A program made the position numbers and the translations under genes. DNA of 64,000 bases from assembly GCF_009914755.1 (NCBI RefSeq), contig NC_060926.1. One strand, given 5' to 3'. This DNA comes from the human T2T-CHM13v2.0 reference genome, Homo sapiens. The stretch's first letter is position 1. Each line of letters starts with the position of its first letter. This document shows, piece by piece, positions 4,186 to 62,706 of this stretch. The notes beneath the pieces are model-generated. The model worked only from the letters and a program-made list of their open reading frames with translations. It had not been told where the DNA came from and did not search any database.

Positions 4186-4701
4186 GGAGGCCAGTTGCTA
4201 CGCTGCTGACAGTAATAAACTGCAAAATCTTCAGGCTCTAGGCTGCTGATGGTGAGAGTGAAGTCTGTCCCAGACCCACTGCCACTGAACCTGGCTGGGA
4301 TGCCAGTGGCCCTGTTGGATGCATCATAGATGAGGAGCCTGGGAGCCTGGCCAGGTTTCTGTTGGTACCAGGCTAAGTAGCTGCTAACACTCTGACTGGC
4401 CCTGCAGGAGAGGGTGGCTCTTTCCCCTGGAGACAAAGACAGGGTGGCTGGAGACTGTGTCAACACAATTTCTCCGGTGGTATCTGAAATTGGAAATAAA
4501 ACAGAAATGCACTCATGTAATCAAGATCAAACCAACTGTCTTTGAGTAGAGCCAAAATTGTTGATATACTTTGAATTTTAATTATATTTCTTGCTGAGCA
4601 GAGGTGGCAAGAGTTTTCACTAATGTGCAAAACCACCTCATGTTCCCCTCACCTGGGAGCCAGAGTAGCAGGAGGAAGAGAAGCTGAGCTGGGGCTTCCA
4701 T
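4186..4701 (-). CDS. IGKV3-11: Immunoglobulin kappa variable gene segment IGKV3-11 (germline, intact): L-part1 4701-4653, intron 4652-4484, L-part2 + V exon 4483-4186
   Basis: ATG at 4701 with leader [16 protein letters not shown]; GT/AG 169-nt intron; 287-nt V region [95 protein letters not shown], recalled as IGKV3-11*01. Confidence 0.96.
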
Positions 4702-17238: not shown

Positions 17239-17715
17239 GGAGGGAAACTGTTAGCCTGTTGACAATAGTAAGTTGCAAAATCTTCAGGCTGCAGGCTGCT
17301 GATGGTGAGAGTGAAATCTGTCCCAGATCCACTGCCGCTGAACCTTGATGGGACCCCACTTTGCAAACTGGATGCAGCATAGATCAGGAGCTTAGGGGCT
17401 TTCCCTGGTTTCTGCTGATACCAGGCTAACCAGCTGCTAATACCCTGACTCGCCCGACAAGTGATGGTGACTCTGTCTCCTACAGATGCAGACACGGAAG
17501 ATGGAGACTGGGTCATCTGGATGTCGCATCTGGAACCTGAGATTGGAAACATAAAAACAAATGTCCACACAATTAATCATGCTGTAAGAGAAGTTCCCTG
17601 AATAGTAAAGCAGTACTCAGCACACTGACCGAGTATAATCCTAGTGTTCTCCTTTCTTACCTGGGAACCAGAGCAGCAGGAGCCCCAGGAGCTGAGCGGG
17701 GACCCTCATGTCCAT
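17239..17715 (-). CDS. IGKV1-12: Immunoglobulin kappa variable gene segment IGKV1-12 (intact): L-part1 17715-17661, intron 17660-17537, L-part2 + V exon 17536-17239
   Basis: Leader [18 protein letters not shown]; V = [95 protein letters not shown]; position between 3-11 and 1-13. Confidence 0.94.
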
Positions 17716-17762
17716 GCTGTGTCCTGACTGGGTCTGACTCCTGCACAGGGTGTGATCAGCCT

Positions 17763-17844
17763 GTTAATAAGTCTTCAGGTCAGGAGACTGTGCTCTGGGA
17801 ACATGCAAATGAGCAGGGGATGGGGCAGGCTGGGCGCAGCTGCA
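17763..17844 (-). promoter_or_regulatory. IGKV1-12 promoter
   Basis: Octamer ATTTGCAT 17810-17803; pentadecamer TGCAGCTGCGCCCAG 17844-17830; AT-rich TATA-like 17770-17763. Confidence 0.85.
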
Positions 17845-18590
17845 GGGCTGGCTCATCTCAGTAACTCAGCACCAGCTCAGTGTCCCCAGGTGTCCCAGGT
17901 AAGACCAGGGTAGCACAAATTTGTCTGCAGAGAATGTGTTTCTACTGGGAACTATTTTGTTGTGAGTAACATTTTTTGGTTTCTTTTTGACGATTTGAAA
18001 TATTCCTCAGGAGTTGATGGACTAATGTATTTCATTGGTGTATGGGGATTATTTAGGAGAATATTGTTGTTTGTAGGAAACACATAGTAAAATGTTAGAC
18101 GGTACAATTCTCAAGTCTTCAAAAGACTCTTATATGATTCCGGCTAGGGAAGGGGGTATTTGTCGTATACATGCAACATTTCTGTGAGTTTAACATTGTT
18201 CCTATGTAAAAAAATTAAAAATAAAATTTATTGACATGATGGTACATACATTTGTAAGTATCAGGTAATGGTGTTATGCCATTGTTCTTACCAGTATGAG
18301 ATCAAACTATGTACTATAGATACACAAAGATGATACCGTGTTTTCTCGATGCATGCAGCAGTCACAGATCCACAATTATCAAGAGCGACAGGTCTCTATA
18401 GTACTCAGACACTAAATGGGTTGCACCTTATTCTTGTTTTGGGCACCTTCATAGTCTACCTTCTTTTCTGCCATTCAGTATTATTTCCCAAAGTTCATCT
18501 CTCTTACTGAGGGTGACCACTGCATGGAGCATGTCCCTGCCATGCACCATCAATGACACTTTCCTCTTTTACTTTTTATCAGTGATTGGG

Positions 18591-18871
18591 GAAATCATCC
18601 TGACCCAGGCAACAGCCTCCCTGTTAACTGCTTTAGGAAAGAGACACTGAATCTCTTATCAAGCAGTTGCCTATGTACATGGAGAAATCACTTGGATCCA
18701 GATGAAACTGGACAGGGATTTGCACTCGTTATATCTCATATCTCTAATGTGCCCAAAAATGTCCCAGCCTGACTCAGTAGCAGGGAAAGTGGATCCAACT
18801 ACATCAGCATCAGTGGGCTGCCACCTAGGACTCCACAAAATTTTACTGATGCCTGACTAGGGGAGCCAAAT
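18591..18871 (+). pseudogene. Decayed full-length V-kappa exon (relic) in opposite orientation, head-to-head with IGKV1-12
   Basis: Polypyrimidine tract + AG at 18581-2; reading with two 1-nt frameshifts gives EIILTQATASLLTALGKRH*ISYQAVAYVHGEITW(35)IQMK-GQGFALVISHISNVPKNVPA*LSSRESGSNYISISGLPP-DSTKFY*; landmarks Q6, G16, W35, V58-P59, S67-G68, D82, Y87 fall at Kabat spacing; RSS follows directly. Confidence 0.88.
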
Positions 18872-18898
18872 CACAGTGCTGCAGGCTGTGCACAAACC
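18872..18898 (+). other. RSS-like element of plus-strand V relic (11-nt spacer)
   Basis: CACAGTG 18872-18878, CTGCAGGCTGT, GCACAAACC 18890-18898. Confidence 0.8.
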
Positions 18899-20191
18899 TT
18901 CCTGCTGTTTTTTAAGCTGCCTGAATTTTAAGGGAACTTGCTTATATTGGGAGAAAGGAAGAAAGCTCCATTTGTCCTCTAAATATTTGCTGAAAATGAA
19001 TGGACAAAAGAAAGATTAATAAGAGAAAAGACAAACAAAATTCATTTGAAGTGCAGCAGAATATCATAGCAGGGTGATTACCCAGATAACTCAATGGGAT
19101 ACAGTTGTTTATATTTCTTTTCTAAGGAAGAGGGAATTGAGAAGTGTAGGCAACCTGGAAAGAATAGATGAGAACAGAAGTGCATCCTCAAAAGAACAGG
19201 TCATAGCCTGTCTGGATAAAGCATCAACTTCAGTCTCTTGTATTTTAGATTCCTCTTTTGTGTTAATATTCCCTGATGTAAAAATTCTCAGGAAGAATTT
19301 TTTTGACAATTGGTTTCCTTCTGGAGAATCTGCTATTATGCAGATAAGGGACATTTAGGAAAAGTCTTTTTGTGCATTTGGTGCTTTCTAAATGTCTTTG
19401 GTTTTACATAATCATCATACCAGTGCAGCGTAGTTTGAGATGTTATTTTCTGGATTCCTTTACTTGCAACCCACCTGCCAAGATCCTGTTCCAGAGAGAT
19501 GCAGCTACAGATTGAATGAGCAGTTGACCCTTGAACAACATGGAGGTTTGGGCACTGACCATGGGTGCAGATGAAAACCTGTGTAGAACTTTTGCATTTC
19601 TAACTCCAGGCATCATCTTGAAAGTGGAGAAAGCAGACCTTAACCTGCCCATGTCTTGATCTTTAATTTCCCATTCTCCAGAACTGTAAGAAAATAAATT
19701 TCTGTTCCTTATGAATTACATAGTGACAATGAATCTGTTATAGCAGCTTGAAATAGAACAAGAGAGACAGCGCACAATCAGTGAGGACACGATGAGGTGT
19801 ATACATACCCCAGCTTCCTCATCTCTCAGGTGGAATAGCCCAGAGGAACTTAGTCCATGTTTCCACATGTGGTTGATCTTTGGTTATCCTGAGTCAGGTA
19901 GGTTGTTGATGTGTCTTTTTCCATTCATCTTCTGTTCTCTTCCTCACTTTCCTCCTTTCCTCCCAGTGTAAATTTGCTGCCTAAACAGGGATCCTCATTG
20001 AGGGTGGACCCAAACTAAGATAGTTAAAAAAAAAAATTGTTAATCTTTTGTAAGAGGGGTATTTCTCATCTGAATTCTGATAATTTCTTTTTCTTTGACA
20101 TGTAGGAATATTCAGGAGGCACTTAATTTTTTTTTTTTTTTTTACCAATCTGTTTTACATTCAATTTGTGAACTGATTTTGTTTTTCTGTG

Positions 20192-23004: not shown

Positions 23005-23483
<479 letters not shown>

Positions 23484-23611: not shown

Positions 23612-24103
23612 GGGCTGGCTCATCTCAGTAACTCAGCACCAGTTCAGTGTCCCCAGGTGTCCCAGGTAAGACCAGGGTAGCACAAATTTGTCTCCAGAGA
23701 ATGTGTTTCTACTGGGAACTATTTTATTATGAGAGACATTTTTTAGGTTTTTTTTGACAATTTGAAATATTCCTCAGGAGTTGATGGAGTAATGTATTTC
23801 ATTGGTGTATGGGGATTATTTAGGAGAATATTCTTGTTTGTAGGAAATATATAATAAAATGTTAGACGGTATGATTATCAGGTCTCCAAAAGACTCTCAT
23901 ATGATCCCGGTTAGGGAAGGGGTTACTTTGCCCTATACTTGGAACATTTCTGTGATTTTAACATTGTTCCTTTCTAAAAAAAATCAAAAATAAAATTTAT
24001 TGACATGATGCTATATATACATGTCAGTATTCGGTAATGGTGTTATGCCATTGTTCTTACCACTATAAGATCAAGCAATTTACTACAGATCCACAGAGAT
24101 GAT

Positions 24104-24332
24104 GCCTATGTACATGGAGAAAGCAGTTTGATCCAGACAAAACTGGAAATGATTTGCAATCATTATATCGCACATATCTAATGTGCCCAAAACTGTCCCA
24201 GCCTAGCTCAGTAGCAGGGGAAGTGGATCCAACTATATTAGCATCAGTGGGCTGCAGCCTAGGGCTCCACAAAATTTTACTGATGCCTGAGTAGGGGAGC
24301 CAAATCACAGTGCCATAGCCCGTGCACAAACC
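24104..24332 (+). pseudogene. 5'-truncated paralog of the plus-strand V-kappa relic, with RSS-like element
   Basis: Aligns with 18669-18898 from CDR1 onward; CACAGTG 24306-24312, 11 nt, GCACAAACC 24324-24332. Confidence 0.85.
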
Positions 24333-24955
24333 TTCTTGCTGCTTTGTAAGCCGCCTGAATTTTAAGGGAACTTGCTTATATTGGGAGAAAGGAAGAAAAC
24401 TCCATTTGTCCTCTAAATGTTTGCTGAAAATAAACTGACAAAAGGAAGATTAATAAGAGAAAAGGCAAACAAAATTCATTTAAAGTGCAGCAGGATATCA
24501 TAGCAGGGTGATTACCCAAATAACTCAATAAGATCCAGTAGTTCATATTTCCTTTCCAGCGAAGACGGAATTCGGAAGTGTAGGCAATCTGGAGAGAATA
24601 GATGAGAACAGAAGTGCATCTTCAAAAGAACAGGTAATAGCCTGTCTGGATAAAGCATCAGTTCCCAGTCTCTTCTATTTTTGATTCCTGTTTTGTGTTA
24701 ATCTTCCCTGATATAAAAATTCTCAGGAAGAAGTTTTTTGACAATTGGTTTCCTTCTGGAGAATCTGCTTTTTGGCAGATAAGCGATGTTTAGGAGAAGG
24801 CTTTTTGTGCATTTGCTGCTTTCTAAATGCCTTTGGTTTTATGTAATCCTCATACGAATGCAGCATAGTTTGAGATGTTATTTTCTGGATTCCTTTACTT
24901 ACAACTCACCTACCAAGATCCTGTTCCAGAGAGATGCAGCTACAGACTGAAAGAG

Positions 24956-39571: not shown

Positions 39572-39767
39572 GGCATCTTTAGTTTCCTCAAATATCAGGT
39601 ACTTGTACTGAGTGTGAAATCTGTCCTGTACTTACTGGCATTGACTAGTCCTGTGACCCCTGGGAACATCTTGGGAAGCATACTTTGTAAGAGAGGTTTT
39701 AGGGTAACCTAGCTATTGGAAGCATAACATTTGCAAAATATCCTAATCTTTGTGATTTCTAACATGT
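39572..39767 (-). pseudogene. Degenerate V-kappa fragment (relic, CDR1-FR3)
   Basis: Minus strand reads KYASQDVP-GVTGLVNASKYRTDFTLSTST...ETKDA, resembling [35 protein letters not shown]; ACAGATTTCACACTC at 39624-39610. Confidence 0.62.
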
Positions 39768-62190: not shown

Positions 62191-62706
62191 GGAGGCCAGT
62201 TATTATACTGCTGACAGTAATAAACTGCAAAATCTTCAGACTGCAGGCTGCTGATGGTGAGAGTGAACTCTGTCCCAGACCCACTGCCACTGAACCTGGC
62301 TGGGATACCAGTGGCCCTGGTGGATGCACCATAGATGAGGAGCCTGGGAGCCTGGCCAGGTTTCTGCTGGTACCAGGCTAAGTTGCTGCTAACACTCTGA
62401 CTGGCCCTGCAGGAGAGGGTGGCTCTTTCCCCTGGAGACACAGACAGGGTGGCTGGAGACTGCGTCATCACTATTTCTCCAGTGGTATCTGAAATTGGAA
62501 ATAAAACAGAAATGCACTCATGTAATCAAAATCAAACCCACTGTCTTTAAGTAGAGCCAAAATTGTTGATCTACATTGAATTTTAATTATATTTCTTGCT
62601 GAGCAGAGGTGGCAGGAGTTTTCACTGATGTGCAAAACCACCTCATATTCCCCTCACCTGGGAGCCAGAGTAGCAGGAGGAAGAGAAGCTGCGCTGGGGC
62701 TTCCAT
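62191..62706 (-). CDS. IGKV3-15: Immunoglobulin kappa variable gene segment IGKV3-15 (intact): L-part1 62706-62658, intron 62657-62489, L-part2 + V exon 62488-62191
   Basis: [95 protein letters not shown]; leader [16 protein letters not shown]; GT/AG intron. Confidence 0.96.

What the first reader, a model, noticed from the sequence alone, without database searches (positions are those of the whole stretch)
18416..18898. Hidden full-length V-kappa gene relic on the opposite strand, head-to-head with IGKV1-12
Seen: splice acceptor (TTTTTATCAG, 18582), then from 18591 a V exon at exact Kabat spacing: EIILTQATASLLTALGKRH*ISY(C23Y)QAVAYVHGEITW35IQMK-GQGFALVISHISNVPKNVPA*LSSRESGSNY-ISISGLPP-DSTKFY*(C88). 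A perfect CACAGTG follows. A hydrophobic leader-like stretch starts at ATG 18416 (speculative). The ORF track misses it, and it is not one of the five named IGKV genes I recognise here. Its CDR1/FR2 resemble no functional human Vk family, suggesting an extinct lineage and an ancient inverted arrangement that travels with the Vk1 duplication unit (inference). V-kappa relics have been reported in locus-sequencing work, so novelty needs checking.
Basis: partly seen in the sequence, partly recalled or inferred. Interest (0 to 1): 0.8.

Follow-up and report, generated by a model that had tools for sequence, protein, structure and literature searches.

The report
Decayed V-kappa relic beside IGKV1-12
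This is a dead, heavily mutated antibody kappa V-gene remnant lying back-to-front just upstream of IGKV1-12, one copy of an old pseudogene family that was copied along with the Vk1 genes; it is an ordinary relic of a kind already reported for this locus.

Summary
Window 18583-18898 (+) is a collinear V-kappa V-exon remnant followed by a recombination signal. A DNA profile of the five in-window V exons gives E 9.7e-11 and 35.3 bits, against at most 6.8 bits in 21 decoys. The 5' half matches kappa light chains in the PDB at residues 1-39.

It cannot code: two frameshifts, three stops and both cysteines lost. The signal is a perfect heptamer, an 11-nt spacer and a 7/9 nonamer.

The proposed leader at ATG 18416 is not supported. 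More divergent paralogs carry about 280 bp at the 18499|18500 junction, holding a leader-like exon and a 122-124-nt intron. This copy has lost that stretch.

The relic belongs to a family of at least 40 matches genome-wide. In 21 of 30 fetched loci it lies head-to-head with a Vk1-type gene, including orphon loci. Relic and Vk1-flank trees agree, and relic divergence equals that of its flanks, so it was passively co-duplicated. The family forms its own clade outside crown Vk1, 2, 3, 4, 5 and 7; its sister group is unresolved.

Kawasaki 2001 counted 69+62 V sequences against IMGT's 40+36. This relic is very probably among the 55 unnamed ones. That paper could not be read. Low interest.

The parts
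18302..18499 (+). Conserved old 5' flank of the relic gene. In less-decayed paralogs this sequence lies about 170 nt or more upstream of the leader exon.
   Evidence: blastn of 18300-19000 against the loci: this part aligns at 68-74% to groups B and C about 280 bp further from the V exon than here (alignment). No ATTTGCAT on the + strand. Leader similarity z<=2.6, best 5 of 200 shuffles.
18499..18500 (+). Junction of a deletion of about 280 bp that removed the upstream flank, the leader exon (L-part1) and about 40 nt of the intron.
   Evidence: Two collinear HSPs abut here in 12 group B/C loci. The missing segment in L014, L013, L021 and L017 holds leader-like sequence ending in a CAG|GTGA-type donor, with Smith-Waterman z up to 6.5 and 0 of 200 shuffles reaching it. 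The IGKV1-9 unit also continues about 95 nt past this junction into the B/C-type segment.
18500..18582 (+). Remaining 3' part of the V intron, with a polypyrimidine tract and CAG.
   Evidence: Aligned with the intron 3' ends of paralogs. In groups B and C the acceptor is TTTAG three bases upstream, giving the canonical 11-nt L-part2. Here that AG reads AT.
18583..18871 (+). V-exon remnant covering FR1 to the CDR3 start: 2 frameshifts, 3 stops, a 3-nt FR3 deletion, Cys23 changed to Tyr, Cys104 changed to a stop, Trp41 kept.
   Evidence: nhmmer at 35.3 bits and E 9.7e-11, collinear. tblastn E 2e-5. PDB kappa light chains at residues 1-39. Decoys at most 6.8 bits.
18872..18898 (+). RSS remnant: heptamer CACAGTG (18872-78), 11-nt spacer (18879-89), nonamer GCACAAACC (18890-98, 7 of 9).
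   Evidence: The model alignment shows a 1-nt gap in the spacer. The heptamer is canonical in 13 of 21 aligned family copies: 10 of 10 in group A, 0 of 6 in group B, 3 of 5 in group C.
17241..17715 (-). IGKV1-12, the functional partner gene. Its ATG lies 868 bp from the relic V exon start. Its octamer is the only ATTTGCAT between 17716 and 19400, starting at 17803 as one search printed it (minus strand).
   Evidence: Hub annotation.
24103..24374 (+). Truncated paralog of the relic upstream of IGKV1-13, covering CDR1 to the RSS. A 330-bp deletion equivalent to 18338-18667 removed its 5' half.
   Evidence: blastn 88.3% over 273 nt. Unit comparison. RSS at 24306.

Best explanation
A non-functional V-kappa pseudogene relic. 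An ancestral V-kappa gene had the standard anatomy: a leader exon, an intron of about 123 nt, an 11-nt L-part2, a V exon and a kappa-type RSS. It lay head-to-head about 0.9 kb from the progenitor of the Vk1 genes. It was already disabled when the pair began to be duplicated, and it has since been carried passively with each Vk1 duplication within the proximal and distal clusters and out to the orphon regions. In the sub-lineage that contains the IGKV1-5, 1-8, 1-12, 1-13 and 1-16 units (group A), a deletion of about 280 bp then removed its leader exon and the sequence upstream of it. The copy at 18583-18898 makes no protein and most likely does nothing. Shown: V homology, defects, deletion, co-duplication, divergence equal to flanks. 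Inferred: absence of function, order of events, age.
For: V homology and RSS. No coding capacity: (longest ATG ORFs over the V exon are 39 and 52 aa). No leader or octamer. The family ancestor was a real V gene. Paralog L026 reads through the whole V exon in one frame with only 2 internal stops, with Cys23 and Cys104 in place. It matches 5180 PDB sequences at E<=1e-3, and the best single-domain hits are kappa chains at E 1.5e-18, residues 2-89. Groups B and C keep a leader-like exon, a donor, a 122-124-nt intron, a TTTAG acceptor and an 11-nt L-part2. Co-duplication with Vk1: 21 of 30 fetched loci hold a Vk1 gene or Vk1 promoter/leader divergently oriented next to the relic. 19 of 19 strong neighbours best match IGKV1 genes at 83-100%. 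The relic tree and the neighbour promoter/leader/intron tree both recover group A, at 100/100 and 100/99. Defects shared between groups: the 1-nt FR2 deletion and TAT at Cys23 in A and B; the 1-nt loss in the Cys104 codon in A, B and most of C. Neutral drift: mean pairwise identity among 7 group-A units is 90.3% in the relic V exon, against 88.1-90.3% in adjacent non-coding flanks and 91.8% in the real V exon. No Rfam match. No CTCF-core-like site at <=1 mismatch to a recalled motif.
Against: The heptamer is perfect here and in all 10 aligned group-A copies, and identity is slightly higher at 18800-18999 (92.6-92.8%) than at 18000-18699 (84.6-91.0%). With only 7 bases and about 10% divergence this is not significant, but it does not exclude some use of the RSS. 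No expression, chromatin, RAG-binding or repertoire data were available, so 'no function' is inferred. Pfam V-set was not reached for this copy (0 hits) and only below threshold for L026 (V-set E 0.011 at 16.4 bits against a cut-off of 26; Ig_3 E 0.0012). The Vk1-only leader profile did not detect the relic-side leader at E<=0.01. The leader evidence rests on pairwise alignments, which are strong in L014 and L013, moderate in L021 and L017, and weak in L012 and L016.
Confidence: 0.88

Rival explanations
1. The relic still acts as a cryptic recombination target. Its RSS, inverted relative to J-C, is cut by RAG and joins J-kappa by inversion. This would give non-productive rearrangements that keep upstream V genes available for editing.
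For: Perfect heptamer, nonamer 7 of 9, and an RSS-like architecture found only 5 times in 64 kb (3 of them real V genes). The heptamer is kept in 10 of 10 group-A copies. It lies 0.9-1.2 kb from an active Vk1 promoter, so the chromatin is probably accessible (inference).
Against: The spacer is 11 nt, not 12; by recalled knowledge, off-length spacers lower recombination. The heptamer is lost in 8 of 21 family copies, including 6 of 6 in group B, so there is no family-wide constraint. Divergence equals that of the flanks. No repertoire data were examined.
Confidence: 0.08
2. The family is not a separate V-kappa lineage. It is a very old inverted duplicate of the Vk1 progenitor itself, made unrecognisable by neutral decay.
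For: The ancestral intron of 122-124 nt equals the Vk1 intron (124 nt; Vk3 169 nt, Vk2 405 nt in this window) (hub annotation). In the best tree the relic clade lies beside Vk1. The leader-like exon of L013 and L021 aligns with Vk1 leaders at z 4-5.7. It is always paired with Vk1.
Against: Support for relic+Vk1 is negligible (35/7.9), and pairings with Vk3, Vk2, Vk7, Vk4 or Vk5 are not rejected either (p-AU 0.26-0.49). Consensus identity to Vk1 (57.7-59.6%) is no higher than to Vk3 (59.2-59.6%) or Vk7 (59.3%). Crown Vk1 excludes the relics at 100/99.
Confidence: 0.3
3. The remnant has been co-opted as a cis-regulatory element, such as an upstream enhancer or insulator, or a divergent promoter, for the neighbouring Vk1 gene.
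For: Constant position upstream of Vk1 genes. Slightly higher identity at 18800-18999.
Against: IGKV1-6 and IGKV1-9 are annotated V segments that lack the relic V exon, and IGKV1-13 has only half of it. No octamer on its strand and no CTCF-core-like site. RefSeq lists no functional element there (hub table). Identity is at flank level.
Confidence: 0.04
4. Chance resemblance: it is not V-derived at all.
For: Pfam finds no domain in the fragments. The FR2-FR3 fragment alone is not significant against the PDB.
Against: E 9.7e-11 with collinear full-length alignment including the RSS. Decoy maximum 6.8 bits. Paralogs are up to E 7e-17 against the same model, and L026 reaches E 1.5e-18 against kappa chains.
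Confidence: 0.01

Closest known systems
Unnamed V-kappa 'relics' of the human IGK locus (Kawasaki et al. 2001, Eur J Immunol 31:1017; earlier Zachau-laboratory work)
   Same: A degenerate V-like sequence inside the IGK V clusters that is not in the 76-gene nomenclature. Two papers citing Kawasaki give 69 proximal + 62 distal V genes and pseudogenes (passages read), against IMGT's 40 + 36 = 76 (passage read). That leaves 29 + 26 = 55 unnamed. My scan of 260 kb from IGKC to IGKV1-16 found 16 named V exons and 11 unnamed V-like stretches, a similar ratio. The term 'relics' is seen only in the titles of Schable et al. 1999 and 1994 in a reference list. That Kawasaki called the 55 'relics' is recalled, not seen.
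   Different: I could not read Kawasaki 2001 (not held), so I cannot show that this particular element, its orientation, or its family-wide pairing with Vk1 is listed there. Four searches of the open library for kappa relics found no description of it.
IGKV7-3, the single-member pseudogene subgroup Vk7
   Same: A V-kappa pseudogene of a lineage with no functional human member. Consensus identity of the relic to it is 59.3%, as high as to any family.
   Different: IGKV7-3 is far better preserved: 257 bits against the same V model, versus 35 bits. It is 66-76% identical to the other named families, versus 47-56% for this copy. It is named and single-copy, whereas the relic family has at least 40 matches genome-wide.
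Inverted functional V-kappa genes (IGKV4-1, IGKV5-2 and the distal cluster), which rearrange by inversion
   Same: Polarity opposite to J-C with a downstream kappa-type RSS. In the 260-kb scan IGKV4-1 and IGKV5-2 are on the + strand, like the relic. Review text on inverted IGKV genes was read.
   Different: Those genes are intact and are used. The relic lacks a leader, a promoter and an open frame, and has an 11-nt spacer.
Mouse V-kappa relics (Schable et al. 1999, title only, seen in a reference list)
   Same: The same category in another species.
   Different: Homology to the human relic family was not tested, because no vertebrate genomes other than this one were available.

Membership tests
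Germline IGKV gene unit (leader exon, intron, V exon, V-RSS) | V exon homologous to immunoglobulin kappa V regions over its full length | tested here: met
   nhmmer E 9.7e-11 at model positions 18-341 of 348. tblastn E 2e-5. PDB kappa chains at residues 1-39, E 4.3e-4. Pfam gave 0 hits on the fragments.
Germline IGKV gene unit (leader exon, intron, V exon, V-RSS) | Conserved Cys23, Trp41 and Cys104 | tested here: not met
   TAT at 18657-59, TGG kept at 18693-95, TGA at 18847-49. Both Cys are present in paralog L026.
Germline IGKV gene unit (leader exon, intron, V exon, V-RSS) | Open reading frame through the V exon | tested here: not met
   Two frameshifts and three stops.
Germline IGKV gene unit (leader exon, intron, V exon, V-RSS) | Leader exon with ATG and GT donor, and an octamer promoter upstream | tested here: not met
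   Deleted at 18499|18500. No ATTTGCAT on the + strand in 17716-18590.
Germline IGKV gene unit (leader exon, intron, V exon, V-RSS) | RSS with heptamer, 12-bp spacer and nonamer directly 3' of the V exon | tested here: inconclusive
   Heptamer perfect, nonamer 7 of 9, spacer 11 nt. Activity was not testable.
IGKV1 subgroup | High nucleotide identity to subgroup members (the roughly 75% rule is recalled) and placement inside the subgroup clade | tested here: not met
   54.0-55.9% for this copy and 57.7-59.6% for the consensus against seven IGKV1 genes. The Vk1 clade excludes the relics at 100/99.
V-kappa relic (degenerate or truncated unnamed V-like sequence in the locus) | Recognisable V homology with multiple disabling defects or truncation, absent from the 76-gene nomenclature | tested here: met
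   Not in the RefSeq table supplied by the hub. IMGT lists 76 genes.
V-kappa relic (degenerate or truncated unnamed V-like sequence in the locus) | Listed individually in the published relic catalogue | not testable with these tools
   Kawasaki 2001 is not held. Only the totals 69+62 were seen in citing papers.

The most novel reading that the evidence does not exclude
The relic family is an undescribed eighth V-kappa lineage. It was the head-to-head partner of the Vk1 progenitor, was pseudogenised before the Vk1 expansion, and has been carried for roughly 10^8 years. That age is inferred from a path of about 0.36 substitutions per site between groups A and B and a recalled neutral rate. On this reading it serves as a neutral clock for dating every Vk1 duplication and orphon dispersal, and it may have an intact functional ortholog in some non-primate mammal.
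Probability: 0.15. Interest if true: 0.35.

Novelty: already known. Interest (0 to 1): 0.15.

Why it matters
It matters little for function. The element adds nothing to the antibody repertoire. It has modest value for locus history. The relic is a near-neutral marker physically tied to each Vk1 gene. Its family tree, the 280-bp deletion shared by group A, and the private deletions in the IGKV1-13, 1-6 and 1-9 units together give an independent record of the order of Vk1 duplications and of orphon export. That record is less blurred by selection than the V exons themselves. Its inverted RSS is also a candidate cryptic site to keep in mind when mapping off-target or non-productive kappa rearrangements.

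Tried and rejected
- Pfam on three read-through fragments of this copy gave 0 families. The first two attempts failed on stop codons and frame and were corrected at the same tool.
- A Vk1-only promoter/leader/intron profile found only the true Vk1 neighbours and a leader-sized fragment in L022/L023. It found nothing on the relic side at E<=0.01. Leader evidence therefore comes from pairwise alignments with shuffles.
- A CTCF-core-like motif (recalled) was not found at <=1 mismatch.
- Rfam gave 0 matches at E<=1.
Position-only genome searches then found no proximal counterpart of the distal copy L004; this remains unresolved.
- Kawasaki 2001 is not held. Library searches for kappa relics gave no description of this element.
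- Assigning a sister family to the relic clade failed: nothing is rejected.
- The top PDB single-domain hits to L026 are mouse kappa chains (D1.3 Fv, 70.2 bits). They are only a few bits above many others, so no family assignment was drawn.

Full report
**What is there**

The stretch was read directly and translated.
- A polypyrimidine tract ends in CAG at 18580-18582.
- From 18591 one frame reads EIILTQATASLLTALGKRH*ISYQAVAYVHGEITWIQMK.
- After a one-base loss, the frame from 18710 reads GQGFALVISHISNVPKNVPA*LSSRESGSNYISISGLPP.
- After a second shift, the frame from 18829 reads DSTKFY*.

The defects are:
- stops at 18648-50, 18770-72 and 18847-49, the last at the Cys104 position;
- TAT in place of Cys23 (18657-59);
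- a 3-nt loss in FR3.

The tryptophan codon survives at 18693-95. CACAGTG lies at 18872-18878, followed by an 11-nt spacer and GCACAAACC, which matches the nonamer consensus at 7 of 9 positions.

**Is it more than chance?**

I built a DNA profile from the five annotated in-window V exons with their RSS.
- It aligns 18585-18901 collinearly to positions 18-341 of 348, at 35.3 bits and E 9.7e-11.
- The five real genes score 318-386 bits.
- The best score in 21 decoy windows (one reversed, twenty block-shuffled) is 6.8 bits.

Protein-level checks gave mixed support.
- tblastn with the IGKV3-11 and IGKV3-15 proteins finds 18531-18707 at E about 2e-5. The two Vk1 proteins find nothing there at E<=10.
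- The 39-residue 5' fragment, with its stop read as X, matches 701 PDB sequences at E<=10. These are mostly antibody light chains in exact register (1-39 to 1-39). The best single-domain chain has E 4.3e-4.
- The FR2-FR3 fragment is not significant on its own: light chains appear only from E 0.16, with a chance non-antibody hit on top.
- Pfam reports nothing for the fragments.

An RSS-like arrangement (heptamer, 11-13-nt spacer, nonamer with <=2 mismatches) occurs only five times on both strands of the window. Three are real V genes, one is this element, and one is its paralog at 24306.

**The leader**

Its similarity to five V leaders is no better than 5 of 200 shuffles. No octamer lies on its strand upstream.

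The paralogs explain why.
- In more divergent copies (groups B and C, below), the part equivalent to 18302-18499 lies about 280 bp further from the V exon. Two collinear HSPs abut at 18499|18500 (alignment).
- The extra segment holds a leader-like exon ending in a CAG|GTGA-type donor. It is followed by a 122-124-nt intron, a TTTAG acceptor, an 11-nt L-part2, and then the codons for DI(I/T).
- Similarity to V leaders is strong in L014 and L013 (z up to 6.5, 0 of 200 shuffles), moderate in L021 and L017, and weak in L012 and L016.
- A Vk1-only profile did not detect it at E<=0.01.
- The IGKV1-9 unit also runs about 95 nt past the junction into this segment before an interspersed repeat cuts it off.

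So the segment is ancestral, and the copy in the window has lost it by deletion. It is a V exon plus RSS only, not a full-length gene.

**The family**

A search of the window's own genome with 18560-18910 gives 40 matches at E<=1e-3. This is a lower bound, since 40 of 43 candidates were scored. They fall as follows:
- 10 in the proximal IGK cluster;
- 11 in the distal cluster;
- 1 between the clusters;
- 18 elsewhere, on chr2 (92-114 Mb), contigs C9, C10, C14, C22 and C24.

A wider query gave 48 matches. Three groups emerge.
- Group A is 87-100% identical to this copy. It covers the units of IGKV1-5, 1-8, 1-12 and 1-16, the truncated IGKV1-13 copy, and distal counterparts.
- Group B is about 72-74% identical.
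- Group C is 66-72% identical.

Pairing with Vk1:
- In 19 of the 30 fetched loci, a strong V exon lies divergently next to the relic.
- All 19 best match IGKV1 genes, at 83-100%.
- Two more loci show the Vk1 promoter and leader at the edge of the held DNA.
- Seven Vk1 genes lie in the 260 kb scanned. Four have the whole relic V exon.
- IGKV1-13 has the 3' half; a 330-bp deletion removed the rest.
- IGKV1-6 and IGKV1-9 have lost it.

**Co-duplication and drift**

Maximum-likelihood trees of the relic copies and of the neighbouring Vk1 promoter/leader/intron both recover group A, at 100/100 and 100/99. Both keep group B together, at 93/92 and 71/77.

Among seven group-A units, mean pairwise identity by region is:

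| Region | Identity |
|---|---|
| Relic V exon | 90.3% |
| Adjacent non-coding flanks | 88.1-90.3% |
| Real V exon | 91.8% |

Groups A and B share the FR2 one-base loss and TAT at Cys23. A, B and most of C share the one-base loss in the Cys104 codon. The gene was therefore already dead when the pair was being copied.

The path between groups A and B is about 0.36 substitutions per site. With a recalled neutral rate this puts the split on the order of 10^8 years. This is a rough inference, and gene conversion could distort it.

**What the ancestor was**

The best-kept member is L026, at chr2:89289468-89289820 on the minus strand, with a distal mirror copy L027.
- It reads through the whole V exon in one frame, with two internal stops and both cysteines present.
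- It matches 5180 PDB sequences at E<=1e-3. The best single-domain hits are kappa chains, at E 1.5e-18 over residues 2-89.
- Pfam stays below its cut-offs: Ig_3 at E 0.0012 and V-set at E 0.011.

In a V-exon tree with 16 named genes of families 1, 2, 3, 4, 5 and 7, the 12 relic copies form their own clade (100/100). Crown Vk1 excludes them (100/99).

Identity to the named genes:

| Comparison | Identity |
|---|---|
| Family consensus against named genes | 51.7-59.6% |
| This copy against named genes | 47.1-55.9% |
| Named genes against each other, between families (six reference rows) | 53.6-80.4% |

The sister group is unresolved. The best tree puts the relics beside Vk1 with support 35/7.9, and no other pairing is rejected (p-AU 0.26-0.49). 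The 122-124-nt intron equals that of Vk1. An old inverted duplicate of the Vk1 progenitor therefore remains possible.

**Function**

Nothing points to one.
- There is no open frame; the longest ATG ORFs over the V exon are 39 and 52 aa.
- There is no leader and no promoter octamer.
- There is no Rfam match.
- There is no CTCF-core-like site, using a recalled motif.
- Divergence is at flank level.

One residual possibility is a cryptic RSS.
- In favour: the heptamer is perfect here and in 10 of 10 group-A copies.
- Against: it is lost in 8 of the 21 aligned copies.
- Against: the spacer is one base short.

No repertoire or chromatin data were available, so absence of function is inferred rather than shown.

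**Comparison with what is known**

IMGT lists 76 IGKV genes, 40 proximal and 36 distal (PMC7555362, passage read). Two papers that cite Kawasaki et al. 2001 give 69 proximal and 62 distal V genes and pseudogenes (10.1101/006866 and PMC11327106, passages read). So 55 V-like sequences were counted beyond the named ones. I recall, but did not see, that they were called relics. The term appears in the titles of Zachau-laboratory papers in a reference list.

My scan of 260 kb from IGKC to IGKV1-16 returned 30 hits at E<=0.01:
- 16 named V exons;
- 3 antisense self-matches inside Vk3 exons;
- 11 unnamed V-like stretches.

That ratio, 11 unnamed to 16 named, is close to 29 to 40. This relic is among the more complete ones, so it is very probably in that catalogue. 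Kawasaki 2001 is not held. Six searches of the open library found no text describing this element or its pairing with Vk1, so listing of this individual element is unverified.

**Verdict**

This is a real but ordinary V-kappa relic.
- The inference that it travels with the Vk1 unit is right.
- 'Full-length' and the leader are wrong.
- 'Extinct separate lineage' is plausible but unresolved.
- Novelty is low.

Noticed in passing
window 39586-39701 (-): Another unnamed V-like remnant. It matches FR3 only (model positions 172-267), E 5.7e-5, and has the same orientation as the functional genes.
   Followed up: no
outside the window: window coordinates -66598..-66408, -64646..-64415, -51955..-51729 (all -), -50272..-50222 (-), -123947..-123833 (-): Five further unnamed V-like stretches lie between IGKV5-2 and IGKV3-7. 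Two score much better than the relic studied (E 8.5e-19 and 3.3e-18).
   Followed up: no
L026 = chr2:89289468-89289820 (-), with distal mirror copy L027: The best-preserved member of the relic family. It has no frameshift, two internal stops and both Cys present, and it is oriented like the functional V genes. No Vk1 neighbour lies within the 3.4 kb held. PDB kappa chains match at E 1.5e-18.
   Followed up: partly
L004 = chr2:90637102-90637799 (-), distal cluster: This group-A relic is probably beside IGKV1D-17, judging by its 17.45-kb spacing from the 1D-16 copy. It has no near-identical proximal counterpart near IGKV1-17 in two genome searches. That suggests a possible proximal/distal structural difference or a search miss; the DNA could not be fetched.
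   Followed up: partly
window 4388-4452 (+) and 62393-62455 (+); also inside IGKV3-7: The V profile also matches the antisense strand of the FR1-CDR1 part of all three Vk3 exons (E 4e-4 to 2e-3). This suggests a quasi-palindromic stretch within Vk3 exons.
   Followed up: no
L022/L023 (chr2:89139799-89140207 and its mirror copy): Here the relic copy is accompanied only by a leader-exon-sized Vk1 fragment (profile positions 231-318, E 2e-11). The Vk1 partner itself has been lost.
   Followed up: no
window 23007-23483 (-), IGKV1-13: The annotated V segment has an in-frame stop at the conserved Trp position (..SALA*YQQ..). Its heptamer reads CATAGTG instead of CACAGTG in this assembly.
   Followed up: no
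window about -11655..-11034 (upstream of IGKV1-9) and window 19604: An interspersed repeat has 70-77% copies at six other places in the 260 kb. In the IGKV1-9 unit it replaces the relic. Homology between Vk1 units breaks at about 19604, with insertions of 660-690 bp in other units.
   Followed up: partly
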